64,000 bases of DNA from Balanoglossus misakiensis (Eukaryota > Animalia > Hemichordata). The stretch spans positions 9,162,254 to 9,226,253 of the forward strand of contig CM082583.2 of the NCBI GenBank assembly GCA_040954595.2, read 5' to 3'. The position numbers and the translations under genes are program-made. The notes beneath the pieces are model-generated. The model did no database searches, was not told where the DNA came from, and was given only the letters and a program-made list of their open reading frames with translations. The number at the start of each line of letters is the position of its first letter. The first letter of the stretch is position 1. Shown one piece after another: positions 1-41,591 of the stretch.

Positions 1-3000
1 TGACATTTCTGGATGATTTTCATGAGCTATAACCCATGGTTTTTGTCGAAAAACCACCAAATTTTGAAAATTCGCGAAGTCGAAAAATTGACATTTCTGG
101 ATGATTTTCATGAGCTATAACCCATGGTTTTTGTCGCTAAACCACCAAATTTTGAAATTTCGCGAAGTCGAAAAATTGACATTTCTGGATGATTTTCATG
201 AGCTATAACCCATGGTTTTTGTCGAAAAACCACCAAATTTTGAAAATTCGCAAAGTCGAAAAATTGACATTTCTGGATGATTTTCATGAGCTATAACCCA
301 TGGTTTTTATCAAAAAATCACCAAATTTTGAAAATTCGCAAAGTCGAAAAATCGTCGATTTTTGAAGATTTTCCTGAGCTATAACCCATGGTTTTTATCA
401 AAAAATCACCAAATTTTGAAAATTCGCAAAGTCGAAGAATCGTCGATTTTTTAAGATTTTCCTGAGCTATAACCCATGGTTTTTATCAAAAAATCACCAA
501 ATTTTGAAAATTCGCAAAGTCGAAAAATCGTCGATTTTTGAAGATTTTCCTGAGCTATAACCCATGGTTTTTTATCAAAAAATCACCAAATTTTGAAAAT
601 TCGCAAAGTCGAAAAATCGTCGATTTTTGAAGATTTTCCTGAGCTATAACCCATGGTTTTTATCAAAAAATCACCAAATTTTGAAAATTCGCAAAGTCGA
701 AAAATCGTCGATTTTTGAAGATTTTCCTGAGCTATAACCCATGGTTTTTATCAAAAAATCACCAAATTTTGAAAATTCGCAAAGTCGAAAAATCGTCGAT
801 TTTTGAAGATTTTCCTGAGCTATAACCCATGGTTTTTATCAAAAAATCACCAAATTTTGAAAATTCGCAAAGTCGAAAAATCGTCGATTTTTGAAGATTT
901 TCCTGAGCTATAACCCATGGTTTTTATCAAAAAATCACCAAATTTTGAAAATTCGCAAAGTCGAAAAATCGTCGATTTTTGAAGATTTTCCTGAGCTATA
1001 ACCCATGGTTTTTATCAAAAAATCACCAAATTTTGAAAATTCGCAAAGTCGAAGAATCGTCGATTTTTTAAGATTTTCCTGAGCTATAACCCATGGTTTT
1101 TATCAAAAAATCACCAAATTTTGAAAATTCGCAAAGTCGAAAAATCGTCGATTTTTGAAGATTTTCCTGAGCTATAACCCATGGTTTTTTATCAAAAAAT
1201 CACCAAATTTTGAAAATTCGCAAAGTCGAAAAATCGTCGATTTTTGAAGATTTTCCTGAGCTATAACCCATGGTTTTTATCAAAAAATCACCAAATTTTG
1301 AAAATTCGCAAAGTCGAAAAATCGTCGATTTTTGAAGATTTTCCTGAGCTATAACCCATGGTTTTTATCAAAAAATGACCAAATTTTGAAAATTCGCAAA
1401 GTCGAAAAATCGTCGATTTTTGAAGATTTTCCTGAGCTATAACCCATGGTTTTTATCAAAAAATCACCAAATTTTGAAAATTCGCAAAGTCGAAAAATCG
1501 TCGATTTTTGAAGATTTTCCTGAGCTATAACCCATGGTTTTTATCAAAAAATCACCAAATTTTGAAAATTCGCAAAGTCGAAAAATCGTCGATTTTTGAA
1601 GATTTTCCTGAGCTATAACCCATGGTTTTTATCAAAAAATCACCAAATTTTGAAAATTCGCAAAGTCGAAAAATCGTCGATTTTTGAAGATTTTCCTGAG
1701 CTATAACCCATGGTTTTTATCAAAAAATCACCAAATTTTGAAAATTCGCAAAGTCGAAAAATCGTCGATTTTTGAAGATTTTCCTGAGCTATAACCCATG
1801 GTTTTTTATCAAAAAATCACCAAATTTTGAAAATTCGCAAAGTCGAAAAATCGTCGATTTTTGAAGATTTTCCTGAGCTATAACCCATGGTTTTTATCAA
1901 AAAATCACCAAATTTTGAAAATTCGCAAAGTCGAAAAATCGTCGATTTTTGAAGATTTTCCTGAGCTATAACCCATGGTTTTTATCAAAAAATGACCAAA
2001 TTTTGAAAATTCGCAAAGTCGAAAAATCGTCGATTTTTGAAGATTTTCCTGAGCTATAACCCATGGTTTTTATCAAAAAATCACCAAATTTTGAAAATTC
2101 GCAAAGTCGAAAAATCGTCGATTTTTGAAGATTTTCCTGAGCTATAACCCATGGTTTTTATCAAAAAATCACCAAATTTTGAAAATTCGCAAAGTCGAAA
2201 AATCGTCGATTTTTGAAGATTTTCCTGAGCTATAACCCATGGTTTTTATCAAAAAATCACCAAATTTTGAAAATTCGCAAAGTCGAAGAATCGTCGATTT
2301 TTTAAGATTTTCCTGAGCTATAACCCATGGTTTTTATCAAAAAATCACCAAATTTTGAAAATTCGCAAAGTCGAAAAATCGTCGATTTTTGAAGATTTTC
2401 CTGAGCTATAACCCATGGTTTTTTATCAAAAAATCACCAAATTTTGAAAATTCGCAAAGTCGAAAAATCGTCGATTTTTGAAGATTTTCCTGAGCTATAA
2501 CCCATGGTTTTTATCAAAAAATCACCAAATTTTGAAAATTCGCAAAGTCGAAAAATCGTCGATTTTTGAAGATTTTCCTGAGCTATAACCCATGGTTTTT
2601 ATCAAAAAATGACCAAATTTTGAAAATTCGCAAAGTCGAAAAATCGTCGATTTTTGAAGATTTTCCTGAGCTATAACCCATGGTTTTTATCAAAAAATGA
2701 CCAAATTTTGAAAATTCGCAAAGTCGAAAAATCGTCGATTTTTGAAGATTTTCCTGAGCTATAACCCATGGTTTTTATCAAAAAATCACCGAATTTTGAA
2801 AATTCGCAAAGTCGAAAAATCGTCGATTTTTGAAGATTTTCCTGAGCTATAACCCATGGTTTTTATCAAAAAATCACCAAATTTTGAAAATTCGCAAAGT
2901 CGAAAAATCGTCGATTTTTGAAGATTTTCCTGAGCTATAACCCATGGTTTTTATCAAAAAATGACCAAATTTTGAAAATTCGCAAAGTCGAAAAATCGTC

Positions 3001-6000
3001 GATTTTTGAAGATTTTCCTGAGCTATAACCCATGGTTTTTATCAAAAAATGACCAAATTTTGAAAATTCGCAAAGTCGAAAAATCGTCGATTTTTGAAGA
3101 TTTTCCTGAGCTATAACCCATGGTTTTTATCAAAAAATCACCAAATTTTGAAAATTCGCAAAGTCGAAAAATCGTCGATTTTTGAAGATTTTCCTGAGCT
3201 ATAACCCATGGTTTTTATCAAAAAATCACCAAATTTTGAAAATTCGCAAAGTCGAAAAATCGTCGATTTTTGAAGATTTTCCTGAGCTATAACCCATGGT
3301 TTTTATCAAAAAATCACCAAATTTTGAAAATTCGCAAAGTCGAAAAATCGTCGATTTTTGAAGATTTTCCTGAGCTATAACCCATGGTTTTTGTCGAAAA
3401 ACCACCAAATTTTGAAATTTCGCGAAGTCGAAAAATTGACATTTCTGGATGATTTTCATGAGCTATAACCCATGGTTTTTGTCGAAAAACCACCAAATTT
3501 TGAAATTTCGCGAAGTCGAAAAATTGATATTTCTGGATGATTTTCATGAGCTATAACCCATGGTTTTTGTCGAAAAACCACCAAATTTTGAAACTTCGCG
3601 AAGTCGAAAAATTGACATTTCTGGATGATTTTCATGAGCTATAACCCATGGTTTTTGTCGAAAAACCACCAAATTTTGAAAATTCGCAAAGTCGAAAAAT
3701 CGTCGATTTTTGAAGATTTTCCTGAGCTATAACCCATGGTTTTTATCAAAAAATCACCAAATTTTGAAAATTCGCAAAGTCGAAAAATCGTCGATTTTTG
3801 AAGATTTTCCTGAGCTATAACCCATGGTTTTTTTCAAAAAATCACCAAATTTTGAAATTTCACGAAGTCGAAAAATTGACATTTCTGGATGATTTTCATG
3901 AGCTATAACCCATGGTTTTTGTCGAAAAACCACCAAATTTTGAAATTTCGCGAAGTCGAAAAATTGACATTTCTGGATGATTTTCATGAGCTATAACCCA
4001 TGGTTTTTGTCGAAAAACCACCAAATTTTGAAATTTCGCGAAGTCGAAAAATTGACATTTCTGGATTATTTTCATGAGCTATAACCCATGGTTTTTGTCG
4101 AAAAACCACCAAATTTTGAAATTTCGCGAAGTCGAAAAATTGACATTTCTGGATGATTTTCATGAGCTATAACCCATGGTTTTTGTCGAAAATCGAAGAA
4201 ATTTTGAAAATTCGCAAAGTCGAGAAATTGACATTTCTGGATGATTTTCATGAGCTATAACCCATGGTTTTTATCAAAAAATCACCAAATTTTGAAAATT
4301 CGCAAAGTCGAAAAATCGTCGATTTTTGAAGATTTTCCTGAGCTATAACCCATGGTTTTTATCAAAAAATCACCAAATTTTGAAAATTCGCAAAGTCGAA
4401 AAATCGTCGATTTTTGAAGATTTTCCTGAGCTATAACCCATGGTTTTTATCAAAAAATCACCAACGAAAATTCGCAAAGTCGAAAAATCGTCGATTTTTG
4501 AAGATTTTCCTGAGCTATAACCCATGGTTTTTATCAAAAAATCACCAAATTTTGAAAATTCGCAAAGTCGAAAAATCGTCGATTTTTGAAGATTTTCCTG
4601 AGCTATAACCCATGGTTTTTATCAAAAAATCACAAAATTTTGAAAATTCGCAAAGTCGAAAAATCGTCGATTTTTGAAGATTTTCCTGAGCTATAACCCA
4701 TGGTTTTTATCAAAAAATCACAAAATTTTGAAAATTCGCAAAGTCGAAAAATCGTCGATTTTTGAAGATTTTCCTGAGCTATAACCCATGCTTTTTATCA
4801 AAAAATCACCAAATTTTGAAAATTCGCAAAGTCGAAAAATCGTCGATTTTTGAAGATTTTCCTGAGCTATAACCCATGGTTTTTATCAAAAAATCACCAA
4901 ATTTTGAAAATTCGCAAAGTCGAAAAATCGTCGATTTTTGAAGATTTTCCTGAGCTATAACCCATGGTTTTTATCAAAAAATCACCAAATTTTGAAATTT
5001 CGCGAAGTCGAAAAATTGACATTTCTGGATGATTTTCATGAGCTATAACCCATGGTTTTTGTCGAAAAACCACCAAATTTTGAAATTTCGCGAAGTCGAA
5101 AAATTGACAGTTCTGGATGATTTTCATGAGCTATAACCCATGGTTTTTATCAAAAAATCACCAAATTTTGAAAATTCGCAAAGTCGAAAAATCGTCGATT
5201 TTTGAAGATTTTCCTGAGCTATAACCCATGGTTTTTATCAAAAAATCACCAAATTTTGAAAATTCGCAAAGTCGAAAAATCGTCGATTTTTGAAGATTTT
5301 CCTGAGCTATAACCCATGGTTTTTATCAAAAAATCACCAAATTTTGAAAATTCGCAAAGTCGAAAAATCGTCGATTTTTGAAGATTTTCCTGAGCTATAA
5401 CCCATGGTTTTTATCAAAAAATCACCAAATTTTGAAAATTCGCAAAGTCGAAAAATCGTCGATTTTTGAAGATTTTCCTGAGCTATAACCCATGGTTTTT
5501 TTCAAAAAATCACCAAATTTTGAAATTTTGCGAAGTCGAAAAATTGACATTTCTGGATGATTTTCATGAGCTATAACCCATGGTTTTTGTCGAAAAACCA
5601 CCAAATTTTGAAATTTCGCGAAGTCGAAAAATTGACATTTCTGGATGATTTTCATGAGCTATAACCCATGGTTTTTGTCGAACAACCACCAAATTTTGAA
5701 ATTTTGCGAAGTCGAAAAATTGACATTTCTGGATGATTTTCATGAGCTATAACCCATGGTTTTTGTCGAACAACCACCAAATTTTGAAATTTTGCGAAGT
5801 CGAAAAATTGACATTTCTGGATGATTTTCATGAGCTATAACCCATGGTTTTTGTCGAAAAACCACCAAATTTTGAAATTTCGCGAAGTCGAAAAATTGTC
5901 ATTTCTGGATTATTTTCATGAGCTATAACCCATGGTTTTTGTCGAAAAACCACCAAATTTTGAAATTTCGCGAAGTCGAAAAATTGACATTTCAGGATGA

Positions 6001-9000
6001 TTTTCATGAGCTATAACCCATGGTTTTTGTCGAAAAACCACCAAATTTTGAAATTTCGCGAAGTCGAAAAATTGACATTTCTGGATGATTTTCATGAGCT
6101 ATAACCCATGGTTTTTGTCGAAAAACCACCAAATTTTGAAATTTCGCGAAGTCGAAAAATTGACATTTCTGGATGATTTTCATGAGCTATAACCCATGGT
6201 TTTTGTCGAAAATCGAAGAAATTTTGAAAATTCGCAAAGTCGAGAAATTGACATTTCTGGATGATTTTCATGAGCTATAACCCATGGTTTTTATCAAAAA
6301 ATCACCAAATTTTGAAAATTCGCAAAGTCGAAAAATCGTCGATTTTTGAAGATTTTCCTGAGCTATAACCCATGGTTTTTATCAAAAAATGACCAAATTT
6401 TGAAAATTCGCAAAGTCGAAAAATCGTCGATTTTTGAAGATTTTCCTGAGCTATAACCCATGGTTTTTATCAAAAAATGACCAAATTTTGAAAATTCGCA
6501 AAGTCGAAAAATCGTCGATTTTTGAAGATTTTCCTGAGCTATAACCCATGGTTTTTATCAAAAAATCACCAAATTTTGAAAATTCGCAAAGTCGAAAAAT
6601 CGTCGATTTTTGAAGATTTTCCTGAGCTATAACCCATGGTTTTTATCAAAAAATCACCAAATTTTGAAAATTCGCAAAGTCGAAAAATCGTCGATTTTTG
6701 AAGATTTTCCTGAGCTATAACCCATGGTTTTTATCAAAAAATCACCAAATTTTGAAAATTCGCAAAGTCGAAAAATCGTCGATTTTTGAAGATTTTCCTG
6801 AGCTATAACCCATGGTTTTTGTCGAAAAACCACCAAATTTTGAAATTTCGCGAAGTCGAAAAATTGACATTTCTGGATGATTTTCATGAGCTATAACCCA
6901 TGGTTTTTGTCGAAAAACCACCAAATTTTGAAATTTCGCGAAGTCGAAAAATTGATATTTCTGGATGATTTTCATGAGCTATAACCCATGGTTTTTGTCG
7001 AAAAACCACCAAATTTTGAAACTTCGCGAAGTCGAAAAATTGACATTTCTGGATGATTTTCATGAGCTATAACCCATGGTTTTTGTCGAAAAACCACCAA
7101 ATTTTGAAAATTCGCAAAGTCGAAAAATCGTCGATTTTTGAAGATTTTCCTGAGCTATAACCCATGGTTTTTATCAAAAAATCACCAAATTTTGAAAATT
7201 CGCAAAGTCGAAAAATCGTCGATTTTTGAAGATTTTCCTGAGCTATAACCCATGGTTTTTTTCAAAAAATCACCAAATTTTGAAATTTCACGAAGTCGAA
7301 AAATTGACATTTCTGGATGATTTTCATGAGCTATAACCCATGGTTTTTGTCGAAAAACCACCAAATTTTGAAATTTCGCGAAGTCGAAAAATTGACATTT
7401 CTGGATGATTTTCATGAGCTATAACCCATGGTTTTTGTCGAAAAACCACCAAATTTTGAAATTTCGCGAAGTCGAAAAATTGACATTTCTGGATTATTTT
7501 CATGAGCTATAACCCATGGTTTTTGTCGAAAAACCACCAAATTTTGAAATTTCGCGAAGTCGAAAAATTGACATTTCTGGATGATTTTCATGAGCTATAA
7601 CCCATGGTTTTTGTCGAAAATCGAAGAAATTTTGAAAATTCGCAAAGTCGAGAAATTGACATTTCTGGATGATTTTCATGAGCTATAACCCATGGTTTTT
7701 ATCAAAAAATCACCAAATTTTGAAAATTCGCAAAGTCGAAAAATCGTCGATTTTTGAAGATTTTCCTGAGCTATAACCCATGGTTTTTATCAAAAAATCA
7801 CCAAATTTTGAAAATTCGCAAAGTCGAAAAATCGTCGATTTTTGAAGATTTTCCTGAGCTATAACCCATGGTTTTTATCAAAAAATCACCAACGAAAATT
7901 CGCAAAGTCGAAAAATCGTCGATTTTTGAAGATTTTCCTGAGCTATAACCCATGGTTTTTATCAAAAAATCACCAAATTTTGAAAATTCGCAAAGTCGAA
8001 AAATCGTCGATTTTTGAAGATTTTCCTGAGCTATAACCCATGGTTTTTATCAAAAAATCACAAAATTTTGAAAATTCGCAAAGTCGAAAAATCGTCGATT
8101 TTTGAAGATTTTCCTGAGCTATAACCCATGGTTTTTATCAAAAAATCACAAAATTTTGAAAATTCGCAAAGTCGAAAAATCGTCGATTTTTGAAGATTTT
8201 CCTGAGCTATAACCCATGCTTTTTATCAAAAAATCACCAAATTTTGAAAATTCGCAAAGTCGAAAAATCGTCGATTTTTGAAGATTTTCCTGAGCTATAA
8301 CCCATGGTTTTTATCAAAAAATCACCAAATTTTGAAAATTCGCAAAGTCGAAAAATCGTCGATTTTTGAAGATTTTCCTGAGCTATAACCCATGGTTTTT
8401 ATCAAAAAATCACCAAATTTTGAAATTTCGCGAAGTCGAAAAATTGACATTTCTGGATGATTTTCATGAGCTATAACCCATGGTTTTTGTCGAAAAACCA
8501 CCAAATTTTGAAATTTCGCGAAGTCGAAAAATTGACAGTTCTGGATGATTTTCATGAGCTATAACCCATGGTTTTTATCAAAAAATCACCAAATTTTGAA
8601 AATTCGCAAAGTCGAAAAATCGTCGATTTTTGAAGATTTTCCTGAGCTATAACCCATGGTTTTTATCAAAAAATCACCAAATTTTGAAAATTCGCAAAGT
8701 CGAAAAATCGTCGATTTTTGAAGATTTTCCTGAGCTATAACCCATGGTTTTTATCAAAAAATCACCAAATTTTGAAAATTCGCAAAGTCGAAAAATCGTC
8801 GATTTTTGAAGATTTTCCTGAGCTATAACCCATGGTTTTTATCAAAAAATCACCAAATTTTGAAAATTCGCAAAGTCGAAAAATCGTCGATTTTTGAAGA
8901 TTTTCCTGAGCTATAACCCATGGTTTTTTTCAAAAAATCACCAAATTTTGAAATTTTGCGAAGTCGAAAAATTGACATTTCTGGATGATTTTCATGAGCT

Positions 9001-12000
9001 ATAACCCATGGTTTTTGTCGAAAAACCACCAAATTTTGAAATTTCGCGAAGTCGAAAAATTGACATTTCTGGATGATTTTCATGAGCTATAACCCATGGT
9101 TTTTGTCGAACAACCACCAAATTTTGAAATTTTGCGAAGTCGAAAAATTGACATTTCTGGATGATTTTCATGAGCTATAACCCATGGTTTTTGTCGAACA
9201 ACCACCAAATTTTGAAATTTTGCGAAGTCGAAAAATTGACATTTCTGGATGATTTTCATGAGCTATAACCCATGGTTTTTGTCGAAAAACCACCAAATTT
9301 TGAAATTTCGCGAAGTCGAAAAATTGTCATTTCTGGATTATTTTCATGAGCTATAACCCATGGTTTTTGTCGAAAAACCACCAAATTTTGAAATTTCGCG
9401 AAGTCGAAAAATTGACATTTCAGGATGATTTTCATGAGCTATAACCCATGGTTTTTGTCGAAAAACCACCAAATTTTGAAATTTCGCGAAGTCGAAAAAT
9501 TGACATTTCTGGATGATTTTCATGAGCTATAACCCATGGTTTTTGTCGAAAAACCACCAAATTTTGAAATTTCGCGAAGTCGAAAAATTGACATTTCTGG
9601 ATGATTTTCATGAGCTATAACCCATGGTTTTTGTCGAAAATCGAAGAAATTTTGAAAATTCGCAAAGTCGAGAAATTGACATTTCTGGATGATTTTCATG
9701 AGCTATAACCCATGGTTTTTATCAAAAAATCACCAAATTTTGAAAATTCGCAAAGTCGAAAAATCGTCGATTTTTGAAGATTTTCCTGAGCTATAACCCA
9801 TGGTTTTTATCAAAAAATCACCAAATTTTGAAAATTCGCAAAGTCGAAAAATCGTCGATTTTTGAAGATTTTCCTGAGCTATAACCCATGGTTTTTATCA
9901 AAAAATCACCAAATTTTGAAAATTCGCAAAGTCGAAAAATCGTCGATTTTTGAAGATTTTCCTGAGCTATAACCCATGGTTTTTATCAAAAAATCACCAA
10001 ATTTTGAAAATTCGCAAAGTCGAAAAATCGTCGATTTTTGAAGATTTTCCTGAGCTATAACCCATGGTTTTTATCAAAAAATCACAAAATTTTGAAAATT
10101 CGCAAAGTCGAAAAATCGTCGATTTTTGAAGATTTTCCTGAGCTATAACCCATGGTTTTTATCAAAAAATCACAAAATTTTGAAAATTCGCAAAGTCGAA
10201 AAATCGTCGATTTTTGAAGATTTTCCTGAGCTATAACCCATGCTTTTTATCAAAAAATCACCAAATTTTGAAAATTCGCAAAGTCGAAAAATCGTCGATT
10301 TTTGAAGATTTTCCTGAGCTATAACCCATGGTTTTTATCAAAAAATCACCAAATTTTGAAAATTCGCAAAGTCGAAAAATCGTCGATTTTTGAAGATTTT
10401 CCTGAGCTATAACCCATGGTTTTTATCAAAAAATCACCAAATTTTGAAATTTCGCGAAGTCGAAAAATTGACATTTCTGGATGATTTTCATGAGCTATAA
10501 CCCATGGTTTTTGTCGAAAAACCACCAAATTTTGAAATTTCGCGAAGTCGAAAAATTGACAGTTCTGGATGATTTTCATGAGCTATAACCCATGGTTTTT
10601 ATCAAAAAATCACCAAATTTTGAAAATTCGCAAAGTCGAAAAATCGTCGATTTTTGAAGATTTTCCTGAGCTATAACCCATGGTTTTTATCAAAAAATCA
10701 CCAATTTTTGAAAATTCGCAAAGTCGAAAAATCGTCGATTTTTGAAGATTTTCCTGAGCTATAACCCATGGTTTTTATCAAAAAATCACCAAATTTTGAA
10801 AATTCGCAAAGTCGAAAAATCGTCGATTTTTGAAGATTTTCCTGAGCTATAACCCATGGTTTTTATCAAAAAATCACCAAATTTTGAAAATTCGCAAAGT
10901 CGAAAAATCGTCGATTTTTGAAGATTTTCCTGAGCTATAACCCATGGTTTTTTTCAAAAAATCACCAAATTTTGAAATTTTGCGAAGTCGAAAAATTGAC
11001 ATTTCTGGATGATTTTCATGAGCTATAACCCATGGTTTTTGTCGAAAAACCACCAAATTTTGAAATTTCGCGAAGTCGAAAAATTGACATTTCTGGATGA
11101 TTTTCATGAGCTATAACCCATGGTTTTTGTCGAACAACCACCAAATTTTGAAATTTTGCGAAGTCGAAAAATTGACATTTCTGGATGATTTTCATGAGCT
11201 ATAACCCATGGTTTTTGTCGAAAAACCACCAAATTTTGAAATTTCGCGAAGTCGAAAAATTGACATTTCTGGATGATTTTCCTGAGCTATAACCCATGGT
11301 TTTTATCAAAAAATCACCAAATTTTGAAAATTCGCAAAGTCGAAAAATCGTCGATTTTTGAAGATTTTCCTGAGCTATAACCCATGGTTTTTATCAAAAA
11401 ATCACCAAATTTTGAAATTTCGCGAAGTCGAAAAATTGACATTTCTGGATGATTTTCATGAGCTATAACCCATGGTTTTTGTCGAAAAACCACCAAATTT
11501 TGAAATTTCGCGAAGTCGAAAAATTGACAGTTCTGGATGATTTTCATGAGCTATAACCCATGGTTTTTGTCGAAAAACCACCAAATTTTGAAATTTCGCG
11601 AAGTCGAAAAATTGACATTTATGGATGATTTTCCTGAGCTATAACCCATGGTTTTTATCAAAAAATCACCAAATTTTGAAAATTCGCAAAGTCGAAAAAT
11701 CGTCGATTTTTGAAGATTTTCCTGAGCTATAACCCATGGTTTTTATCAAAAAATCACCAAATTTTGAAAATTCGCAAAGTCGAAAAATCGTCGATTTTTG
11801 AAGATTTTCCTGAGCTATAACCCATGGTTTTTTTCAAAAAATCACCAAATTTTGAAATTTCGCGAAGTCGAAAAATTGACATTTCTGGATGATTTTCATG
11901 AGCTATAACCCATGGTTTTTGTCGAAAATCGAAGAAATTTTGAAAATTCGCAAAGTCGAAAAATTGACATTTCAGGATGATTTTCATGAGCTATAACCCA

Positions 12001-12370
12001 TTTTTTTTGTCGAAAATCGAAGAAATTTTGAAAATTCGCAAAGTCGAAAAATTGACATTTCTGGAAGATTTTCCTGAGCTATAACCCATGGTTTTTATCA
12101 AAAAATCACCGAATTTTGAAAATTCGCAAAGTCGAAAAATCGTCGATTTTTGAAGATTATCCTGAGCTATAACCCATGGTTTTTATCAAAAAATCACCAA
12201 ATTTTGAAAATTCGCAAAGTCGAAAAATCGTCGATTTTTGAAGATTTTACTGAGCTATAACCCATGGTTTTTATCAAAAAATCACCAAATTTTGAAAATT
12301 CGCAAAGTCGAAAAATCGTCGATTTTTGAAGATTTTCCTGAGCTATAACCCATGGTTTTTATCAAAATCA
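1..12370 (+). repeat. Left arm of the 88-bp satellite (~140 monomers, TAACCC orientation)
   Basis: All monomers read ...GAGCTATAACCCATGG... on +. Repeat-derived ORFs (MKIIQK...) fall on the minus strand here. Confidence 0.98.
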
Positions 12371-15300: not shown

Positions 15301-18300
15301 GAAATTTCAAAATTTGGTGGTTTTTCGACAAAAACCATGGGTTATAGCTCATGAAAATCATCCAGAAATGTCAATTTTTCGACTTCACGAAATTTCAAAA
15401 TTTGGTGGTTTTTCGACAAAAACCATGGGTTATAGCTCATGAAAATCATCCAGTAATGTCAATTTTTCGACTTCGCGAAATTTCAAAATTTGGTGGTTTT
15501 TCGACAAAAACCATGGGTTATAGCTCATGAAAATCATCCAGAAATGTCAATTTTTCGACTTCGCGAAATTTCAAAATTTGGTGATTTTTCGACAAAAACC
15601 ATGGGTTATAGCTAAGGAAAATCTTCAAAAATCGACGATTTTTCGACTTTGCGAATTTTCAAAATTTGGTGATTTTTTGATAAAAACCATGGGTTATAGC
15701 TCAGGAAAATCTTCAAAAATCGACGATTTTTCGACTTTGCGAATTTTCAAAATTTGGTGATTTTTTGATAAAAACCATGGGTTATAGCTCAGGAAAATCT
15801 TCAAAAATCGACGATTTTTCGACTTTGCGAATTTTCAAAATTTGGTGATTTTTTGATAAAAACCATGGGTTATAGCTCAGGAAAATCTTCAAAAATCGAC
15901 GATTTTTCGACTTCGCGAATTTTCAAAATTTGGTGATTTTTAAATTTGGTGATTTTTTGATAAAAACCATGGGTTATAGCTCAGGAAAATCTTCAAAAAT
16001 CGACGATTTTTCGACTTTGCGAATTTTCAAAATTTGGTGATTTTTTGATAAAAACCATGGGTTATAGCTCAGGAAAATCTTCAAAAATCGACGATTTTTC
16101 GACTTTGCGAATTTTCAAAATTTGGTGATTTTTTGATAAAAACCATGGGTTATAGCTCAGGAAAATCTTCAAAAATCGACGATTTTTCGACTTTGCGAAT
16201 TTTCAAAATTTGGTGATTTTTTGATAAAAACCATGGGTTATAGCTCGGGAAAATCTTCAAAAATCGACGATTTTTCGACTTTGCGAATTTTCAAAATTTG
16301 GTGATTTTTTGATAAAAACCATGGGTTATAGCTCAGGAAAATCTTCAAAAATCGACGATTTTTCGACTTTGCGAATTTTCAAAATTTGGTGATTTTTTGA
16401 TAAAAACCATGGGTTATAGCTCATGAAAATCATCCAGAAATGTCAATTTTTCGACTTCGCGAAATTTCAAAATTTGGTGGTTTTTCGACAAAAACCATGG
16501 GTTATAGCTCATGAAAATCATCCAGAAATGTCAATTTTTCGACTTCGCGAAATTTCAAAATTTGGTGGTTTTTCGACAAAAACTATGGGTTATAGCTCAT
16601 GAAAATCATCCAGAAATGTCAATTTTTCGACTTCGCGAAATTTCAAAATTTGGTGGTTTTTCGACAAAAACCATGAGTTATAGCTCATGAAAATCATCCA
16701 GAAATGTCAATTTTTCGACTTCGCGAAATTTCAAAATTTGGTGGTTTTTCGACAAAAACCATGGGTTATAGCTCATGAAAATCATCCAGAAATGTCAATT
16801 TTTCGACTTCGCGAAATTTCAAAATTTGGTGGTTTTTCGACAAAAACCATGAGTTATAGCTCATGAAAATCATCCAGAAATGTCAATTTTTCGACTTCGC
16901 GAAATTTCAAAATTTGGTGGTTTTTCGACAAAAACCATGGGTTATAGCTCATGAAAATCATCCAGAAATGTCAATTTTTCGACTTCGCGAAATTTCAAAA
17001 TTTGGTGGTTTTTCGACAAAAACCATGGGTTATAGCTCATGAAAATCATCCAGAAATGTCAATTTTTCGACTTCGCGAAATTTCAAAATTTGGTGGTTTT
17101 TCGACAAAAACCATGAGTTATAGCTCATGAAAATCATCCAGAAATGTCAATTTTTCGACTTCGCGAAATTTCAAAATTTGGTGGTTTTTCGACAAAAACC
17201 ATGGGTTATAGCTCATGAAAATCATCCAGAAATGTCAATTTTTCGACTTCGCGAAATTTCAAAATTTGGTGGTTTTTCGACAAAAACCATGGGTTATAGC
17301 TCATGAAAATCATCCAGAAATGTCAATTTTTCGACTTCGCGAAATTTCAAAATTTGGTGGTTTTTCGACAAAAACCATGGGTTATAGCTCATGAAAATCA
17401 TCCAGAAATGTCAATTTTTCGACTTCGCGAAATTTCAAAATTTGGTGGTTTTTCGACAAAAACCATGGGTTATAGCTCATGAAAATCATCCAGAAATGTC
17501 AATTTTTCGACTTCGCGAAATTTCAAAATTTGGTGGTTTTTCGACAAAAACCATGAGTTATAGCTCATGAAAATCATCCAGAAATGTCAATTTTTCGACT
17601 TCGCGAAATTTCAAAATTTGGTGGTTTTTCGACAAAAACCATGGGTTATAGCTCATGAAAATCATCCAGAAATGTCAATTTTTCGACTTCGCGAAATTTC
17701 AAAATTTGGTGGTTTTTCGACAAAAACCATGAGTTATAGCTCATGAAAATCATCCAGAAATGTCAATTTTTCGACTTCGCGAAATTTCAAAATTTGGTGG
17801 TTTTTCGACAAAAACCATGGGTTATAGCTCATGAAAATCATCCAGAAATGTCAATTTTTCGACTTCGCGAAATTTCAAAATTTGGTGGTTTTTCGACAAA
17901 AACCATGAGTTATAGCTCATGAAAATCATCCAGAAATGTCAATTTTTCGACTTCACGAAATTTCAAAATTTGGTGGTTTTTCGACAAAAACCATGGGTTA
18001 TAGCTCATGAAAATCATCAAGAAATGTCAATTTTTCGACTTCGCGAAATTTCACAATTTGGTGATTTTTCGACAAAAACCATGGGTTATAGCTCAGGAAA
18101 ATCTTCAAAAATCGACGATTTTTCGACTTTGCGAATTTTCAAAATTTGGTGATTTTTTGATAAAAACCATGGGTTATAGCTCAGGAAAATCTTCAAAAAT
18201 CGACGATTTTTCGACTTTGCGAATTTTCAAAATTTTGTGATTTTTTGATAAAAACCATGGGTTATAGCTCAGGAAAATCTTCAAAAATCGACGATTTTTC

Positions 18301-21300
18301 GACTTTGCGAATTTTCAAAATTTGGTGATTTTTTGATAAAAACCATGGGTTATAGCTCAGGAAAATCTTCAAAAATCGACGATTTTTCGACTTTGCGAAT
18401 TTTCAAAATTTGGTGATTTTTTGATAAAAACCATGGGTTATAGCTCAGGAAAATCTTCAAAAATCGACGATTTTTCGACTTTGCGAATTTTCAAAATTTG
18501 GTGATTTTTTGATAAAAACCATGGGTTATAGCTCAGGAAAATCTTCAAAAATCGACGATTTTTCGACTTTGCGAATTTTCAAAATTTGGTGATTTTTTGA
18601 TAAAAACCATGGGTTATAGCTCAGGATAATCTTCAAAAATCGACGATTTTTCGATTTTGCGAATTTTCAAAATTTGGTGATTTTTTGATAAAAACCATGG
18701 GTTATAGCTCAGGAAAATCTTCAAAAATCGACGATTTTTCGACTTTGCGAATTTTCAAAATTTGGTGATTTTTTGATAAAAACCATGGGTTATAGCTCGG
18801 GAAAATCTTCAAAAATCAACGATTTTTCGACTTTGCGAATTTTCAAAATTTGGTGATTTTTTGATAAAAACCATGGGTTATAGCTCAGGAAAATCTTCAA
18901 AAATCGACGATTTTTCGACTTTGCGAATTTTCAAAATTTGGTGATTTTTTGATAAAAACCATGGGTTATAGCTCATGAAAATCATCCAGAAATGTCAATT
19001 TTTCGACTTCGCGAAATTTCAAAATTTGGTGGTTTTTCGACAAAAACCATGAGTTATAGCTCATGAAAATCATCCAGAAATGTCAATTTTTCGACTTCGC
19101 GAAATTTCAAAATTTGGTGGTTTTTCGACAAAAACCATGGGTTATAGCTCATGAAAATCATCCAGAAATGTCAATTTTTCGACTTCGCGAAATTTCAAAA
19201 TTTGGTGGTTTTTCGACAAAAACCATGAGTTATAGCTCATGAAAATCATCCAGAAATGTCAATTTTTCGACTTCGCGAAATTTCAAAATTTGGTGGTTTT
19301 TCGACAAAAACCATGGGTTATAGCTCATGAAAATCATCCAGAAATGTCAATTTTTCGACTTCGCGAAATTTCAAAATTTGGTGGTTTTTCGACAAAAACC
19401 ATGGGTTATAGCTCATGAAAATCATCCAGAAATGTCAATTTTTCGACTTCGCGAAATTTCAAAATTTGGTGGTTTTTCGACAAAAACCATGAGTTATAGC
19501 TCATGAAAATCATCCAGAAATGTCAATTTTTCGACTTCGCGAAATTTCAAAATTTGGTGGTTTTTCGACAAAAACCATGGGTTATAGCTCATGAAAATCA
19601 TCCAGAAATGTCAATTTTTCGACTTCGCGAAATTTCAAAATTTGGTGGTTTTTCGACAAAAACCATGAGTTATAGCTCATGAAAATCATCCAGAAATGTC
19701 AATTTTTCGACTTCGCGAAATTTCAAAATTTGGTGGTTTTTCGACAAAAACCATGGGTTATAGCTCATGAAAATCATCCAGAAATGTCAATTTTTCGACT
19801 TCGCGAAATTTCAAAATTTGGTGGTTTTTCGACAAAAACCATGGGTTATAGCTCATGAAAATCATCCAGAAATGTCAATTTTTCGACTTCGCGAAATTTC
19901 AAAATTTGGTGGTTTTTCGACAAAAACCATGGGTTATAGCTCATGAAAATCATCCAGAAATGTCAATTTTTCGACTTCGCGAAATTTCAAAATTTGGTGG
20001 TTTTTCGACAAAAAACATGGGTTATAGCTCATGAAAATCATCCAGAAATGTCAATTTTTCGACTTCGCGAAATTTCAAAATTTGGTGGTTTTTCGACAAA
20101 AACCATGGGTTATAGCTCATGAAAATCATCCAGAAATGTCAATTTTTCGACTTCGCGAAATTTCAAAATTTGGTGGTTTTTCGACAAAAACCATGAGTTA
20201 TAGCTCATGAAAATCATCCAGAAATGTCAATTTTTCGACTTCGCGAAATTTCAAAATTTGGTGGTTTTTCGACAAAAACCATGGGTTATAGCTCATGAAA
20301 ATCATCCAGAAATGTCAATTTTTCGACTTCGCGAAATTTCAAAATTTGGTGGTTTTTCGACAAAAACCATGGGTTATAGCTCATGAAAATCATCCAGAAA
20401 TGTCAATTTTTCGACTTCGCGAAATTTCAAAATTTGGTGGTTTTTCGACAAAAACCATGAGTTATAGCTCATGAAAATCATCCAGAAATGTCAATTTTTC
20501 GACTTCGCGAAATTTCAAAATTTGGTGGTTTTTCGACAAAAACCATGGGTTATAGCTCAGGAAAATTTTCAAAAATCGACGATTTTTCGACTTTGCGAAT
20601 TTTCAAAATTTGGTGATTTTTTGATAAAAACCATGGGTTATAGCTCAGGAAAATCTTCAAAAATCGACGATTTTTCGACTTTGCGAATTTTCAAAATTTG
20701 GTGATTTTTTGATAAAAACCATGGGTTATAGCTCATGAAAATCATCCAGAAATGTCAATTTTTCGACTTCGCGAAATTTCAAAATTTGGTGGTTTTTCGA
20801 CAAAAACCATGGGTTATAGCTCATGAAAATCATCAAGAAATGTCAATTTTTCGACTTCGCGAAATTTCAAAATTTGGTGATTTTTCGACAAAAACCATGG
20901 GTTATAGCTCAGGAAAATCTTCAAAAATCGACGATTTTTCGACTTTGCGAATTTTCAAAATTTGGTGATTTTTTGATAAAAACCATGGGTTATAGCTCAG
21001 GAAAATCTTCAAAAATCGACGATTTTTCGACTTTGCGAATTTTCAAAATTTTGTGATTTTTTGATAAAAACCATGGGTTATAGCTCAGGAAAATCTTCAA
21101 AAATCGACGATTTTTCGACTTTGCGAATTTTCAAAATTTGGTGATTTTTTGATAAAAACCATGGGTTATAGCTCAGGAAAATCTTCAAAAATCGACGATT
21201 TTTCGACTTTGCGAATTTTCAAAATTTGGTGATTTTTTGATAAAAACCATGGGTTATAGCTCAGGAAAATCTTCAAAAATCGACGATTTTTCGACTTTGC

Positions 21301-24300
21301 GAATTTTCAAAATTTGGTGATTTTTTGATAAAAACCATGGGTTATAGCTCAGGAAAATCTTCAAAAATCGACGATTTTTCGACTTTGCGAATTTTCAAAA
21401 TTTGGTGATTTTTTGATAAAAACCATGGGTTATAGCTCAGGATAATCTTCAAAAATCGACGATTTTTCGATTTTGCGAATTTTCAAAATTTGGTGATTTT
21501 TTGATAAAAACCATGGGTTATAGCTCAGGAAAATCTTCAAAAATCGACGATTTTTCGACTTTGCGAATTTTCAAAATTTGGTGATTTTTTGATAAAAACC
21601 ATGGGTTATAGCTCGGGAAAATCTTCAAAAATCAACGATTTTTCGACTTTGCGAATTTTCAAAATTTGGTGATTTTTTGATAAAAACCATGGGTTATAGC
21701 TCAGGAAAATCTTCAAAAATCGACGATTTTTCGACTTTGCGAATTTTCAAAATTTGGTGATTTTTTGATAAAAACCATGGGTTATAGCTCATGAAAATCA
21801 TCCAGAAATGTCAATTTTTCGACTTCGCGAAATTTCAAAATTTGGTGGTTTTTCGACAAAAACCATGAGTTATAGCTCATGAAAATCATCCAGAAATGTC
21901 AATTTTTCGACTTCGCGAAATTTCAAAATTTGGTGGTTTTTCGACAAAAACCATGGGTTATAGCTCATGAAAATCATCCAGAAATGTCAATTTTTCGACT
22001 TCGCGAAATTTCAAAATTTGGTGGTTTTTCGACAAAAACCATGAGTTATAGCTCATGAAAATCATCCAGAAATGTCAATTTTTCGACTTCGCGAAATTTC
22101 AAAATTTGGTGGTTTTTCGACAAAAACCATGGGTTATAGCTCATGAAAATCATCCAGAAATGTCAATTTTTCGACTTCGCGAAATTTCAAAATTTGGTGG
22201 TTTTTCGACAAAAACCATGGGTTATAGCTCATGAAAATCATCCAGAAATGTCAATTTTTCGACTTCGCGAAATTTCAAAATTTGGTGGTTTTTCGACAAA
22301 AACCATGAGTTATAGCTCATGAAAATCATCCAGAAATGTCAATTTTTCGACTTCGCGAAATTTCAAAATTTGGTGGTTTTTCGACAAAAACCATGGGTTA
22401 TAGCTCATGAAAATCATCCAGAAATGTCAATTTTTCGACTTCGCGAAATTTCAAAATTTGGTGGTTTTTCGACAAAAACCATGGGTTATAGCTCATGAAA
22501 ATCATCCAGAAATGTCAATTTTTCGACTTCGCGAAATTTCAAAATTTGGTGGTTTTTCGACAAAAACCATGGGTTATAGCTCATGAAAATCATCCAGAAA
22601 TGTCAATTTTTCGACTTCGCGAAATTTCAAAATTTGGTGGTTTTTCGACAAAAAACATGGGTTATAGCTCATGAAAATCATCCAGAAATGTCAATTTTTC
22701 GACTTCGCGAAATTTCAAAATTTGGTGGTTTTTCGACAAAAACCATGGGTTATAGCTCATGAAAATCATCCAGAAATGTCAATTTTTCGACTTCGCGAAA
22801 TTTCAAAATTTGGTGGTTTTTCGACAAAAACCATGAGTTATAGCTCATGAAAATCATCAAGAAATGTCAATTTTTCGACTTCGCGAAATTTCAAAATTTG
22901 GTGATTTTTCGACAAAAACCATGGGTTATAGCTCAGGAAAATCTTCAAAAATCGACGATTTTTCGACTTTGCGAATTTTCAAAATTTGGTGATTTTTTGA
23001 TAAAAACCATGGGTTATAGCTCAGGAAAATCTTCAAAAATCGACGATTTTTCGACTTTGCGAATTTTCAAAATTTTGTGATTTTTTGATAAAAACCATGG
23101 GTTATAGCTCAGGAAAATCTTCAAAAATCGACGATTTTTCGACTTTGCGAATTTTCAAAATTTGGTGATTTTTTGATAAAAACCATGGGTTATAGCTCAG
23201 GAAAATCTTCAAAAATCGACGATTTTTCGACTTTGCGAATTTTCAAAATTTGGTGATTTTTTGATAAAAACCATGGGTTATAGCTCAGGAAAATCTTCAA
23301 AAATCGACGATTTTTCGACTTTGCGAATTTTCAAAATTTGGTGATTTTTTGATAAAAACCATGGGTTATAGCTCAGGAAAATCTTCAAAAATCGACGATT
23401 TTTCGACTTTGCGAATTTTCAAAATTTGGTGATTTTTTGATAAAAACCATGGGTTATAGCTCAGGATAATCTTCAAAAATCGACGATTTTTCGATTTTGC
23501 GAATTTTCAAAATTTGGTGATTTTTTGATAAAAACCATGGGTTATAGCTCAGGAAAATCTTCAAAAATCGACGATTTTTCGACTTTGCGAATTTTCAAAA
23601 TTTGGTGATTTTTTGATAAAAACCATGGGTTATAGCTCGGGAAAATCTTCAAAAATCAACGATTTTTCGACTTTGCGAATTTTCAAAATTTGGTGATTTT
23701 TTGATAAAAACCATGGGTTATAGCTCAGGAAAATCTTCAAAAATCGACGATTTTTCGACTTTGCGAATTTTCAAAATTTGGTGATTTTTTGATAAAAACC
23801 ATGGGTTATAGCTCATGAAAATCATCCAGAAATGTCAATTTTTCGACTTCGCGAAATTTCAAAATTTGGTGGTTTTTCGACAAAAACCATGAGTTATAGC
23901 TCATGAAAATCATCCAGAAATGTCAATTTTTCGACTTCGCGAAATTTCAAAATTTGGTGGTTTTTCGACAAAAACCATGGGTTATAGCTCATGAAAATCA
24001 TCCAGAAATGTCAATTTTTCGACTTCGCGAAATTTCAAAATTTGGTGGTTTTTCGACAAAAACCATGAGTTATAGCTCATGAAAATCATCCAGAAATGTC
24101 AATTTTTCGACTTCGCGAAATTTCAAAATTTGGTGGTTTTTCGACAAAAACCATGGGTTATAGCTCATGAAAATCATCCAGAAATGTCAATTTTTCGACT
24201 TCGCGAAATTTCAAAATTTGGTGGTTTTTCGACAAAAACCATGGGTTATAGCTCATGAAAATCATCCAGAAATGTCAATTTTTCGACTTCGCGAAATTTC

Positions 24301-26577
24301 AAAATTTGGTGGTTTTTCGACAAAAACCATGAGTTATAGCTCATGAAAATCATCCAGAAATGTCAATTTTTCGACTTCGCGAAATTTCAAAATTTGGTGG
24401 TTTTTCGACAAAAACCATGGGTTATAGCTCATGAAAATCATCCAGAAATGTCAATTTTTCGACTTCGCGAAATTTCAAAATTTGGTGGTTTTTCGACAAA
24501 AACCATGGGTTATAGCTCATGAAAATCATCCAGAAATGTCAATTTTTCGACTTCGCGAAATTTCAAAATTTGGTGGTTTTTCGACAAAAACCATGGGTTA
24601 TAGCTCATGAAAATCATCCAGAAATGTCAATTTTTCGACTTCGCGAAATTTCAAAATTTGGTGGTTTTTCGACAAAAAACATGGGTTATAGCTCATGAAA
24701 ATCATCCAGAAATGTCAATTTTTCGACTTCGCGAAATTTCAAAATTTGGTGGTTTTTCGACAAAAACCATGGGTTATAGCTCATGAAAATCATCCAGAAA
24801 TGTCAATTTTTCGACTTCGCGAAATTTCAAAATTTGGTGGTTTTTCGACAAAAACCATGAGTTATAGCTCATGAAAATCATCCAGAAATGTCAATTTTTC
24901 GACTTCGCGAAATTTCAAAATTTGGTGGTTTTTCGACAAAAACCATGGGTTATAGCTCATGAAAATCATCCAGAAATGTCAATTTTTCGACTTCGCGAAA
25001 TTTCAAAATTTGGTGGTTTTTCGACAAAAACCATGGGTTATAGCTCATGAAAATCATCCAGAAATGTCAATTTTTCGACTTCGCGAAATTTCAAAATTTG
25101 GTGGTTTTTCGACAAAAACCATGAGTTATAGCTCATGAAAATCATCCAGAAATGTCAATTTTTCGACTTCGCGAAATTTCAAAATTTGGTGGTTTTTCGA
25201 CAAAAACCATGGGTTATAGCTCATGAAAATCATCCAGAAATGTCAATTTTTCGACTTCGCGAAATTTCAAAATTTGGTGGTTTTTCGACAAAAACCATGG
25301 GTTATAGCTCATGAAAATCATCCAGAAATGTCAAATTTTCGACTTCGCGAAATTTCAAAATTTGGTGGTTTTTCGACAAAAACCATGAGTTATAGCTCAT
25401 GAAAATCATCCAGAAATGTCAATTTTTCGACTTCACGAAATTTCAAAATTTGGTGGTTTTTCGACAAAAACCATGGGTTATAGCTCATGAAAATCATCCA
25501 GAAATGTCAATTTTTCGACTTCGCGAAATTTCAAAATTTGGTGATTTTTCGACAAAAACCATGGGTTATAGCTCAGGAAAATCTTCAAAAATCGACGATT
25601 TTTCGACTTTGCGAATTTTCAAAATTTGGTGATTTTTTGATAAAAACCATGGGTTATAGCTCAGGAAAATCTTCAAAAATCGACGATTTTTCGACTTTGC
25701 GAATTTTCAAAATTTTGTGATTTTTTGATAAAAACCATGGGTTATAGCTCAGGAAAATCTTCAAAAATCGACGATTTTTCGACTTTGCGAATTTTCAAAA
25801 TTTGTTGATTTTTTGATAAAAACCATGGGTTATAGCTCAGGATAATCTTCAAAAATCGACGATTTTTCGATTTTGCGAATTTTCAAAATTTGGTGATTTT
25901 TTGATAAAAACCATGGGTTATAGCTCAGGAAAATCTTCAAAAATCGACGATTTTTCGACTTTGCGAATTTTCAAAATTTGGTGATTTTTTGATAAAAACC
26001 ATGGGTTATAGCTCAGGATAATCTTCAAAAATCGACGATTTTTCGATTTTGCGAATTTTCAAAATTTGGTGATTTTTTGATAAAAACCATGGGTTATAGC
26101 TCAGGAAAATCTTCAAAAATCGACGATTTTTCGACTTTGCGAATTTTCAAAATTTGGTGATTTTTTGATAAAAACCATGGGTTATAGCTCAGGAAAATCT
26201 TCAAAAATCGACGATTTTTCGACTTTGCGAATTTTCAAATTTTGGTGATTTTTTGATAAAAACCATGGGTTATAGCTCAGGAAAATCTTCAAAAATCGAC
26301 GATTTTTTGACTTTGCGAATTTTCAAAATTTGGTGATTTTTTGATAAAAACCATGGGTTATAGCTCAGGAAAATCTTCAAAAATCGACGATTTTTCGACT
26401 TTGCGAATTTTCAAAATTTGGTGATTTTTTGATAAAAACCATGGGTTATAGCTCAGGAAAATCTTCAAAAATCGACGATTTTTCGACTTTGCAAATTTTC
26501 AAAATTTGGTGATTTTTTGATTAAAACCATGGGTTATAGCTCATGAAAATCATCAAAAAATGACAATTTTTCGACTT
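12364..26577 (-). repeat. Right arm of the 88-bp satellite (~160 monomers, reverse-complement orientation)
   Basis: All monomers read ...CCATGGGTTATAGCTC... on +. The same repeat-derived ORFs switch to the plus strand from 12976. Confidence 0.98.
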
Positions 26578-26618
26578 GTGATTCCAATGATTTGTATATA
26601 TTATGTTGTTCTTTTCAG

Positions 26619-39053: not shown

Positions 39054-39171
39054 ACCGAAATCGGGCAGGGCTTGTCTCAGAGGCAGTGTTGCTTGCATCC
39101 GAACGACAAGTAGTGGCGGTGTTTGTCTTAGCTAACTGGTCCGATCGTACACCCCGTGTGAAGAACGCAAG

Positions 39172-41478: not shown

Positions 41479-41591
41479 CTTGCGTTCTTCACACGGGGTT
41501 TACGATCGGACCAGTCAGCGTAGTGCAAAGTTGCCGTGACAATTTCAATCAGTCAGCGGTGTCTGCAGTGAAGACCCAGCTGCTGCTCGGC

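What the first reader, a model, noticed from the sequence alone, without database searches (positions are those of the whole stretch)
1..26618. A >26-kb inverted satellite apparently inside a STRA6 intron: potential giant fold-back dsRNA
Seen: the first visible STRA6 exon is internal (starts mid-codon after TTTTCAG at 26618, no N-terminal part), and the satellite ends ~40 bp before that AG. The 14 downstream introns are only ~110-350 bp. The arms (>=12.3 kb and ~14.2 kb) are reverse complements of the same monomers. Inference: if transcribed through, the pre-mRNA could fold into a >10-kb duplex that loops the intron out, is edited by ADAR, or yields endo-siRNAs against the satellite family. 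Alternatively the array has cut off or silenced the gene.
Basis: partly seen in the sequence, partly recalled or inferred. Interest (0 to 1): 0.82.

Follow-up and report, generated by a model that had tools for sequence, protein, structure and literature searches.

The report
Inverted satellite within acorn-worm STRA6 gene
At least 26 kb of an 88-base repeat, in two halves that point in opposite directions, ends 41 bases before an internal exon of an intact, spliced STRA6-like gene of what is likely an acorn worm, so it likely fills a giant intron and would fold into a very long double-stranded RNA if transcribed, most likely as a by-product rather than as a splicing aid.

Summary
The array is real in the window: an 88-bp satellite, 140 copies on + (15-12367) and 161 inverted copies (12364-26577). 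The arms share two monomer types but are not mirror images and carry their own higher-order repeats, so this is an old strand switch, not a fold-back read artefact. It ends 41 nt before a strong, phase-1 acceptor of a 15-exon STRA6-like gene. The gene has an open 532-codon frame, is 63-73% identical to acorn-worm orthologues, and lacks about 220 N-terminal residues. An RNA-like run splices 12 of 14 visible introns, allelic differences avoid exons, and a DNA contig bridges the array-gene junction. A giant intron is therefore likely. It is not shown: no 5' exons, no splice into 26619, and no contig across the centre were seen. Read-through RNA would pair at 90-96%, but nothing shows editing, siRNAs or a splicing role. 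Closest known: Tribolium satellite macro-dyads and Drosophila satellite-filled giant introns. The scan noted a similar inverted satellite in an arthropod genome. Verdict: new variant of a known kind, moderate interest.

The parts
15..12367 (+). Left satellite arm (cut by the window start): 140 x 88-bp monomers (81 type A, 42 type B, 11 hybrid, 6 with indels); own 3,428-bp (39-mer) higher-order duplication. Type A example 289-376, type B example 11021-11108
12364..12419 (.). Strand-switch junction: a truncated left monomer joined to a truncated inverted monomer with a 4-bp AAAA overlap and no foreign DNA; predicted 52-nt loop (12368-12419) on a 118-bp perfect stem
   Evidence: not bridged by any listed contig
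12364..26577 (-). Right satellite arm, 14.2 kb, about 161 inverted monomers (59 A, 97 B, 4 other among 160 whole units); own 2,024- and 2,816-bp higher-order repeats; one private variant in 27 monomers; atypical monomers at both ends
26578..26618 (+). 41 nt of unique intron end: branch-point-like words, pyrimidine tract and AG; acceptor scores 10.2 bits, above 12 of 14 leave-one-out scores of the gene's own acceptors
   Evidence: bridged to the array by X2 contig 26544-26861 and X1 contig 26556-27302
26619..30750 (+). STRA6-like gene (Pfam RBP_receptor), 15 visible exons: 26619-26751, 26908-26956, 27174-27281, 27455-27555, 27680-27738, 27890-27951, 28052-28205, 28330-28405, 28610-28685, 28817-28865, 29211-29328, 29522-29629, 29850-30013, 30295-30489, 30603-30750; open frame of 532 codons; N-terminal ~220 residues not in the window

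Best explanation
A two-armed array of an abundant 88-bp satellite abuts an internal exon of an intact, spliced STRA6-like gene and likely fills a giant intron of it, having likely arisen by one strand switch followed by separate expansion of each arm, and it is likely a tolerated passenger whose transcript would form long double-stranded RNA as a by-product. Shown: the array, its non-mirror arms, the clean junction in the assembly, the intact gene, splicing of introns 3-14, and the array-gene junction in DNA contigs. Inferred steps: (1) A satellite seed sat in the intron upstream of the codon matching Gly219 of the Glandiceps orthologue. (2) A template switch or inversion at a short A-run joined two truncated monomers in opposite orientation. 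(3) Each arm then grew by unequal exchange or slippage, giving arm-specific 2-3.4-kb repeats. (4) Growth toward the exon stopped at the 41 nt needed for branch point and acceptor. (5) Polymerase reads through, since neither monomer type carries a poly(A) signal or a strong splice site, and the intron is removed by ordinary exon definition at the strong acceptor. (6) As the right arm is transcribed, the RNA would zip back on the left arm from the centre outward into an imperfect duplex of 12 kb or more, a likely ADAR or Dicer substrate, with no sign that the gene needs it.
For: Arms are not mirrored and have private higher-order repeats and variants. The junction has the anatomy of Tribolium inversion sites: two truncated monomers, no foreign DNA (PMC12581902 passages). 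Open 532-codon frame, 63% identical to Glandiceps over 525 aa and 73% to Ptychodera flava over 418 aa; exon 1 is as conserved (28 of 44) as the whole. 82 of the 85 homologues that align to the model's start (151 examined) have 60 or more residues upstream. Run X3 shows spliced joints at 12 of 14 introns (3-14), absent from X1 and X2. Of 39 listed allelic substitutions in the gene span, 5 are exonic (4 synonymous; exons are 39% of the span; P=0.0004), and 0 of 12 listed indels are exonic (P=0.003). An X2 contig bridges array and gene with 34 letters on the array side. The acceptor is strong, and the array has no AATAAA on either strand and no strong splice site. Centre hairpin: -398 kcal/mol over 601 nt, z -38; arms pair at 90.4% without looping out monomers and 95.7% with 39 looped out.
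Against: No 5' exon, left array end or splice into 26619 was seen, so the intron reading rests on indirect evidence. Some database models start near this exon: sea urchin P0012 has only 4 residues upstream and P. flava P0003 has 47, so a shorter form is conceivable. The lack of poly(A) and splice signals is what 44% (type A) and 59% (type B) of shuffled monomers also show, so it permits read-through but is no sign of selection. The allelic test uses a truncated list (8 substitutions and 3 indels not shown) of clustered, non-independent differences. All three runs are one sample, and X1 may be the assembly's own source.
Confidence: 0.55

Rival explanations
1. The duplex is functional: the arms pair to loop out the intron and bring the splice sites together, or act as a hairpin locus feeding siRNAs against the satellite family.
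For: The right arm ends 41 nt from the acceptor, and pairing is strong in silico. Complementary repeats at intron ends do enforce splice-site pairing in zebrafish (PMC4691745 abstract). Young repeats are the main A-to-I targets in nearly all animals examined, in a survey that included P. flava (PMC9989829 sections 8 and 10).
Against: The arms have diverged in monomer order and variants as freely as unrelated arrays (in-register identity equals random pairing), so there is no sign of selection for register. The acceptor is among the gene's strongest, so it has no obvious need of help (my inference).
Confidence: 0.1
2. The array marks a rearrangement or a large (peri)centromeric block that has split the gene. 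The visible exons are expressed from a new internal start and give an N-terminally shortened protein (first in-frame Met at 26636).
For: No 5' exons are in the window (tblastn of 151 N-termini). Three of 85 homologue models start within 47 residues of this exon. The satellite is highly abundant in the genome (summed contig depth about 10^4-10^5 times single copy, a rough figure).
Against: Exon 1 keeps a strong acceptor and a phase-1 start that completes a Gly present at this position in all five other models shown that cover it. Both alleles keep the frame. 82 of 85 homologues have a long N-terminal part that includes a predicted transmembrane segment.
Confidence: 0.13
3. The centre is an assembly misjoin of two arrays of the same family (or two haplotypes) in opposite orientation, so no local dyad exists.
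For: The arms behave as independent arrays, and the right arm (14.2 kb) is near the length of a typical accurate long read (recalled).
Against: No N gap lies in the window. The junction is base-clean, has a 4-bp overlap and matches the form of read-verified Tribolium inversion sites. A rare hybrid monomer occurs near the centre on both sides (11925, 12013; 12672, 13287).
Confidence: 0.13
4. The structure is a foldback DNA transposon (Tetris/Rehavkus type) inserted in the intron, whose tandem-repeat terminal arms have expanded to satellite size.
For: Two inverted arms of tandem repeats; in Tribolium, Rehavkus-borne repeats expanded to arrays up to 80 kb (PMC12581902 passage). Both ends of the right arm carry an atypical monomer not seen in the other segments counted.
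Against: No non-repeat terminus, internal spacer or coding region: the array stops mid-monomer, the centre is satellite-derived, and the longest stop-free stretch on + is 89 codons. The arms are not mirrored.
Confidence: 0.09

Closest known systems
Satellite macro-dyad symmetries of Tribolium madens, T. freemani and T. castaneum (PMC13081366 abstract and passages; PMC12581902 passages)
   Same: Two multi-kb oppositely oriented subarrays of one satellite, unequal arms, a junction of two truncated monomers without foreign DNA, size in the same range (up to 75 kb there).
   Different: There the dyads are recurrent, with conserved inversion sites in thousands of copies in (peri)centromeric multi-megabase regions, and read-verified. 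Here one is seen, directly against an exon of an expressed gene in gene-rich DNA, in a likely hemichordate; recurrence is untested.
Satellite-filled giant introns of Drosophila Y-linked genes kl-3 and kl-5 (PMC6508621 abstract)
   Same: A gene whose intron is filled with satellite DNA that must be transcribed through.
   Different: Those are megabase simple repeats in spermatocyte genes with shown transcription and dedicated RNA-binding proteins. Here a complex 88-bp repeat with an internal inversion; read-through is not shown.
(AC)m-(GT)n RNA-bridge introns of zebrafish (PMC4691745 abstract and opening text)
   Same: Complementary repeats within one intron that can pair across it, one arm close to the 3' splice site.
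   Different: Those are short dinucleotide tracts at both intron boundaries with a shown splicing role. Here the arms are over 12 kb, meet at the centre, and the 5' boundary is unseen.
Foldback transposons with tandem-repeat termini (Tetris, PMC4079207, search listing only; Rehavkus, passage)
   Same: Inverted arms built of tandem repeats that can seed satellites.
   Different: No terminus, target-site duplication, spacer or mirror symmetry seen here.
STRA6-like / RBP_receptor family PF14752; orthologues XP_070542488 and XP_070543672 (P. flava), XP_077989332 (G. talaboti), XP_006817521 (S. kowalevskii)
   Same: Pfam match in 4 of the 9 exon pieces scanned; groups with the three acorn-worm proteins (SH-aLRT 100, quick tree).
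   Different: N-terminal ~220 residues are not in the window; retinol transport by invertebrate members was not tested.

Membership tests
Tribolium-type satellite macro-dyad | Two multi-kb subarrays of the same satellite in opposite orientation | tested here: met
Tribolium-type satellite macro-dyad | Junction of two truncated monomers with no foreign sequence | tested here: met
Tribolium-type satellite macro-dyad | Inversion site conserved and repeated at many loci | tested here: inconclusive
   No genome held; no listed contig crosses the junction, which a high-copy site might be expected to show, but contig sets are filtered
Tribolium-type satellite macro-dyad | Location in (peri)centromeric multi-megabase satellite regions; confirmed on raw long reads | not testable with these tools
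   Right flank is gene-rich unique DNA; left end unseen; no raw reads offered
Satellite-filled giant intron | Exons of one gene on both sides of the array, joined in mRNA | tested here: inconclusive
   Downstream exons intact and spliced; upstream exons and the joint not seen
Satellite-filled giant intron | The satellite is transcribed as part of the pre-mRNA | tested here: inconclusive
   X3 holds satellite-family contigs, but locus, strand and DNA carry-over cannot be told apart
RNA-bridge intron (zebrafish AC/GT type) | Complementary repeats at both intron boundaries | tested here: inconclusive
   3' side within 41 nt; 5' boundary outside the window
RNA-bridge intron (zebrafish AC/GT type) | Pairing required for correct splicing | not testable with these tools
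   Needs a minigene or deletion test
Foldback transposon | Mirror-symmetric terminal inverted repeats around an internal region | tested here: not met
   Arms not mirrored; no internal non-satellite region
Foldback transposon | Matching termini and target-site duplication | not testable with these tools
   Left end outside the window
Fold-back read artefact | Exact mirror image around the centre (recalled property) | tested here: not met
   Perfect symmetry ends after 118 bp; 15 of 126 in-register monomer pairs identical
STRA6-like (PF14752) | RBP_receptor profile match and grouping with STRA6-like proteins | tested here: met

The most novel reading that the evidence does not exclude
A host gene's intron has become a 25-kb-plus hairpin-RNA locus: each time the STRA6-like gene is transcribed, the two satellite arms zip into one of the longest natural intramolecular RNA duplexes, which both draws the splice sites together and supplies siRNAs that keep a major genome-wide satellite family silenced, tying heterochromatin upkeep to expression of an ordinary gene.
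Probability: 0.08. Interest if true: 0.78.

Novelty: new variant of a known kind. Interest (0 to 1): 0.4.

Why it matters
A 2026 paper states that satellite macro-dyads had been documented only in Tribolium (PMC13081366 passage), where the question is whether they act as DNA structures. A dyad in a transcribed intron would give a rare single-locus test at the RNA level: private monomer variants let edited reads, small RNAs and nascent RNA be assigned to this array. It would also show that a compact gene with 100-345-nt introns tolerates one intron about 100 times longer. If no RNA role is found, it is an ordinary satellite inversion in a large intron. Single direction changes in satellite arrays are also reported for mouse (cited in PMC12581902) and, from recall, for human and Arabidopsis centromeres.

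Tried and rejected
Whole genome: none held, so upstream exons, the left array end and other arrays could not be read. Centre junction: contigs of X1-X3 laid on 12330-12425 at 97% likeness showed no listed piece across 12367/12368; pieces end at 12367 or start at 12364-12369. A junction path of about 56 letters would have been the longest piece, and short low-depth contigs (34-67x) do survive in X1, so this blank is not negligible. However, X2 has zero cover at 12370-12377, where X1 has about 2,400x from a common variant, Logan contigs are a simplified and filtered graph (preprint passages), and the tool states that a hole proves nothing: unresolved. Splice into 26619: X3 has no cover at 26664-27155 and its longest contig starts in exon 3; inconclusive. 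No run is on record as RNA; X3 is judged RNA-like from its spliced joints. Editing: no A>G changes listed in X3; contigs at 90-97% likeness would miss hyper-edited RNA. Protein searches for a product spanning the junction: exon 1 against longer proteins, 0 of 34 candidates; P. flava N-terminus against shorter proteins, 0 of 4; both insensitive, since known orthologues were not retrieved. Monomer motif in metagenome contigs: 0 matches. Rfam: only sub-threshold miRNA-hairpin matches at the centre, explained by the palindrome, and no ribozyme; nothing at gathering score in 26000-64000. Monomer self-folding is no better than shuffles (z -1.6 to +0.1), so short centromere-type dyads are not enriched. 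CpG decay: 4 of 41 distinct variants, uninformative. My first exon-11 acceptor (29160) was wrong and was replaced by 29211. Literature searches listed no paper on a hemichordate satellite or on an inverted satellite array inside a transcribed intron; the library is partial and no supplements were read.
Full report
OBSERVATION. Bases 1-26577 are one satellite. TRF gives period 88 at 15-12367 (140.4 copies) and the reverse-complement unit at 12364-26577; GC skew changes sign near the switch and the window has no N. Splitting at a fixed anchor gives 140 left and 160 right whole monomers, 57 distinct. Two types, A and B, differ at 13 of 88 positions, and copies lie on average 0.5-0.7 changes from their type, so the array is young or well homogenised. 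No 14-mer of either type occurs in the rest of the window. Summed contig depth on the monomer is about 2-5 x 10^4 times single-copy depth. This is not a copy number, but even divided by 31 it implies hundreds to thousands of copies, and many further variants appear among loose ends.

THE ARMS ARE NOT MIRROR IMAGES. Read outward from the centre, the order of A and B monomers differs between arms. In-register identity is 0.906 (15 of 126 pairs identical), the same as random pairs (0.908). The longest exact complement between arms is 475 bp, while each arm has its own long exact duplication: 3,548 bp at period 3,428 on the left, 2,046 bp at period 2,024 and 1,613 bp at period 2,816 on the right. 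Nine of the 27 left and 23 right variant types are shared, and the commonest right variant (27 monomers) is absent on the left. This rules out a palindromic read artefact and points to one strand switch followed by separate growth. At the centre a left monomer cut after 27 bases joins an inverted, truncated monomer through a shared AAAA, with no foreign DNA; perfect symmetry spans 118 bp around a 52-nt loop. Tribolium inversion sites are described in the same terms (PMC12581902 passages).

THE GENE. Fifteen exons from 26619 to 30750 give an open frame of 532 codons. It is 63% identical over 525 aa to Glandiceps talaboti XP_077989332, from residue 220, and 73% over 418 aa to Ptychodera flava XP_070543672. 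Four of nine exon pieces scanned match Pfam RBP_receptor, two above the curated cut-off. A quick ML tree of 19 proteins (the careful search did not finish) places it with P. flava, then Glandiceps and Saccoglossus, so the organism is likely an acorn worm. The exon starts in phase 1 and completes a Gly found at this position in all five other models shown that cover it. Of 151 homologues, 85 align to the model's first 30 residues, and 82 of these have 60 or more residues upstream; the exceptions have 4, 35 and 47. No N-terminal STRA6 sequence lies elsewhere in the window. The acceptor at 26618 scores 10.2 bits on a matrix from the gene's 14 other acceptors, above 12 of 14 leave-one-out scores.

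THE GENE LOOKS ALIVE. Three runs of one sample hold the stretch. X3 shows joints at 12 of the 14 introns (3-14), absent from X1 and X2, so it behaves as RNA rather than a retrocopy. Its contigs do not reach exons 1-2. Among listed allelic differences in the gene span, 5 of 39 substitutions are exonic (4 synonymous, 1 Val to Ile; P=0.0004 against length) and 0 of 12 indels (P=0.003). Eight substitutions and three indels were not shown, one listed substitution in the 3' UTR was left out, and the differences are clustered.

THE ARRAY-GENE JUNCTION. An X2 contig runs 26544-26861 (34 letters in the array, 5 differences and a 3-base gap) and an exact X1 contig runs 26556-27302 (22 letters in the array). 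Neither breaks at 26578, where a fork would be expected if one allele lacked the array. The X1 contig starts just after 26555, where the window differs from the family consensus, which suggests an allelic site inside the last monomer. I infer, without proof, that both alleles carry the array here. The centre junction was not bridged by any listed contig; this is unresolved and discussed under Tried and rejected.

WHAT A TRANSCRIPT WOULD DO. Neither strand of the array has AATAAA; one ATTAAA lies at 26520. There is no GT[AG]AG donor; the best donor-like word scores 4.6 bits (62 copies, right arm) and the best acceptor-like word 2.4. This permits read-through, but 44-59% of shuffled monomers are equally clean. 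The 601 nt around the centre fold into one hairpin of -398 kcal/mol (z -38, 0 of 20 shuffles as stable). Paired colinearly, the 140 visible left monomers match at 90.4% with none looped out, and at 95.7% over 105 monomers with 39 looped out. So a duplex of 9-12 kb is possible if the RNA is made and not first cut, coated or degraded. A survey of 22 species that included P. flava found young repeats to be the main A-to-I targets in almost all animals (PMC9989829 sections 8 and 10; I saw no acorn-worm-specific figure). Editing would therefore be the expected by-product, not a surprise. Nothing obtained here shows editing, small RNAs or looping. Looping the intron out needs the left arm to be about 14 kb and to start near the donor; only 12.4 kb is visible.

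MECHANISM AND RIVALS. Most likely (0.55): a real satellite dyad in a giant intron of a working gene, tolerated because the last 41 nt of the intron are intact, with dsRNA as a by-product. Rivals: a split gene expressed from a new start (0.13), a misjoined centre (0.13), a functional RNA bridge or siRNA source (0.10), an expanded foldback transposon (0.09). Taken together, the odds that the array lies in an intron of a full-length gene are about 0.75-0.8.

COMPARISON WITH WHAT IS KNOWN. It works like a Tribolium macro-dyad in anatomy (PMC13081366 abstract and passages), but recurrence and centromeric position are untested, so membership is not claimed. It resembles Drosophila satellite-filled introns (PMC6508621 abstract) and zebrafish RNA-bridge introns (PMC4691745 abstract and opening text) only in part. 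SOS splicing of inverted-repeat transposons (PMC12779559 abstract) concerns elements in mRNAs; here a normal acceptor is present. The combination was not found in nine literature searches. No supplements were read. An earlier scan note describes a 13-kb inverted satellite with mirrored variants in an arthropod, and another places a finding 5.9 Mb upstream on the same piece, so the window is not at a scaffold start; neither note was checked.

VERDICT. Observation confirmed, interpretation partly supported. New variant of a known kind, interest 0.4. Finding the 5' exons and reads across 12367 would settle the architecture.

Noticed in passing
window 31586-31984(-), 39172-39570(+), 41080-41478(-), 43410-43808(-), 47127-47528(-): Five intact, intronless FABP/CRBP-type genes (132-133 aa, 39-80% identical; Pfam Lipocalin_7/Lipocalin; best solved relatives are FABPs, then CRABP2) start about 0.8 kb downstream of the STRA6-like stop. 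Vertebrate STRA6 hands retinol to CRBP1, and this family normally has three introns (both recalled), so the linkage and intron loss may deserve a look.
   Followed up: partly
window 39131-39590 and 41060-41519: Two of those genes form a convergent inverted pair, 85.5% identical over 463 bp.
   Followed up: no
window 35089-35762 and 35928-36655: Two small tandem arrays: 169 bp x 3.9 and 131 bp x 5.5.
   Followed up: no
window 54824-55561 (-): Last coding exon of a two-pore potassium-channel-like gene (Pfam Ion_trans_2, E 2.9e-19).
   Followed up: no
window 50495-51787 (-): 430-aa acidic, low-complexity ORF with a Met-Gly start resembling a myristoylation signal (recalled motif); no Pfam match.
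   Followed up: no
window 12364-12392 and 26546-26575: The first and last monomers of the right arm share an atypical word absent from the other segments counted; the first also occurs elsewhere in the genome in normal tandem context. Possibly older edge monomers.
   Followed up: partly
proteins P0003, P0152, P0004, P0012, P0155: Database models of the P. flava and Saccoglossus orthologues and a sea-urchin homologue also lack or skip part of the N-terminal third; this part of the gene may be hard to annotate in several species.
   Followed up: no
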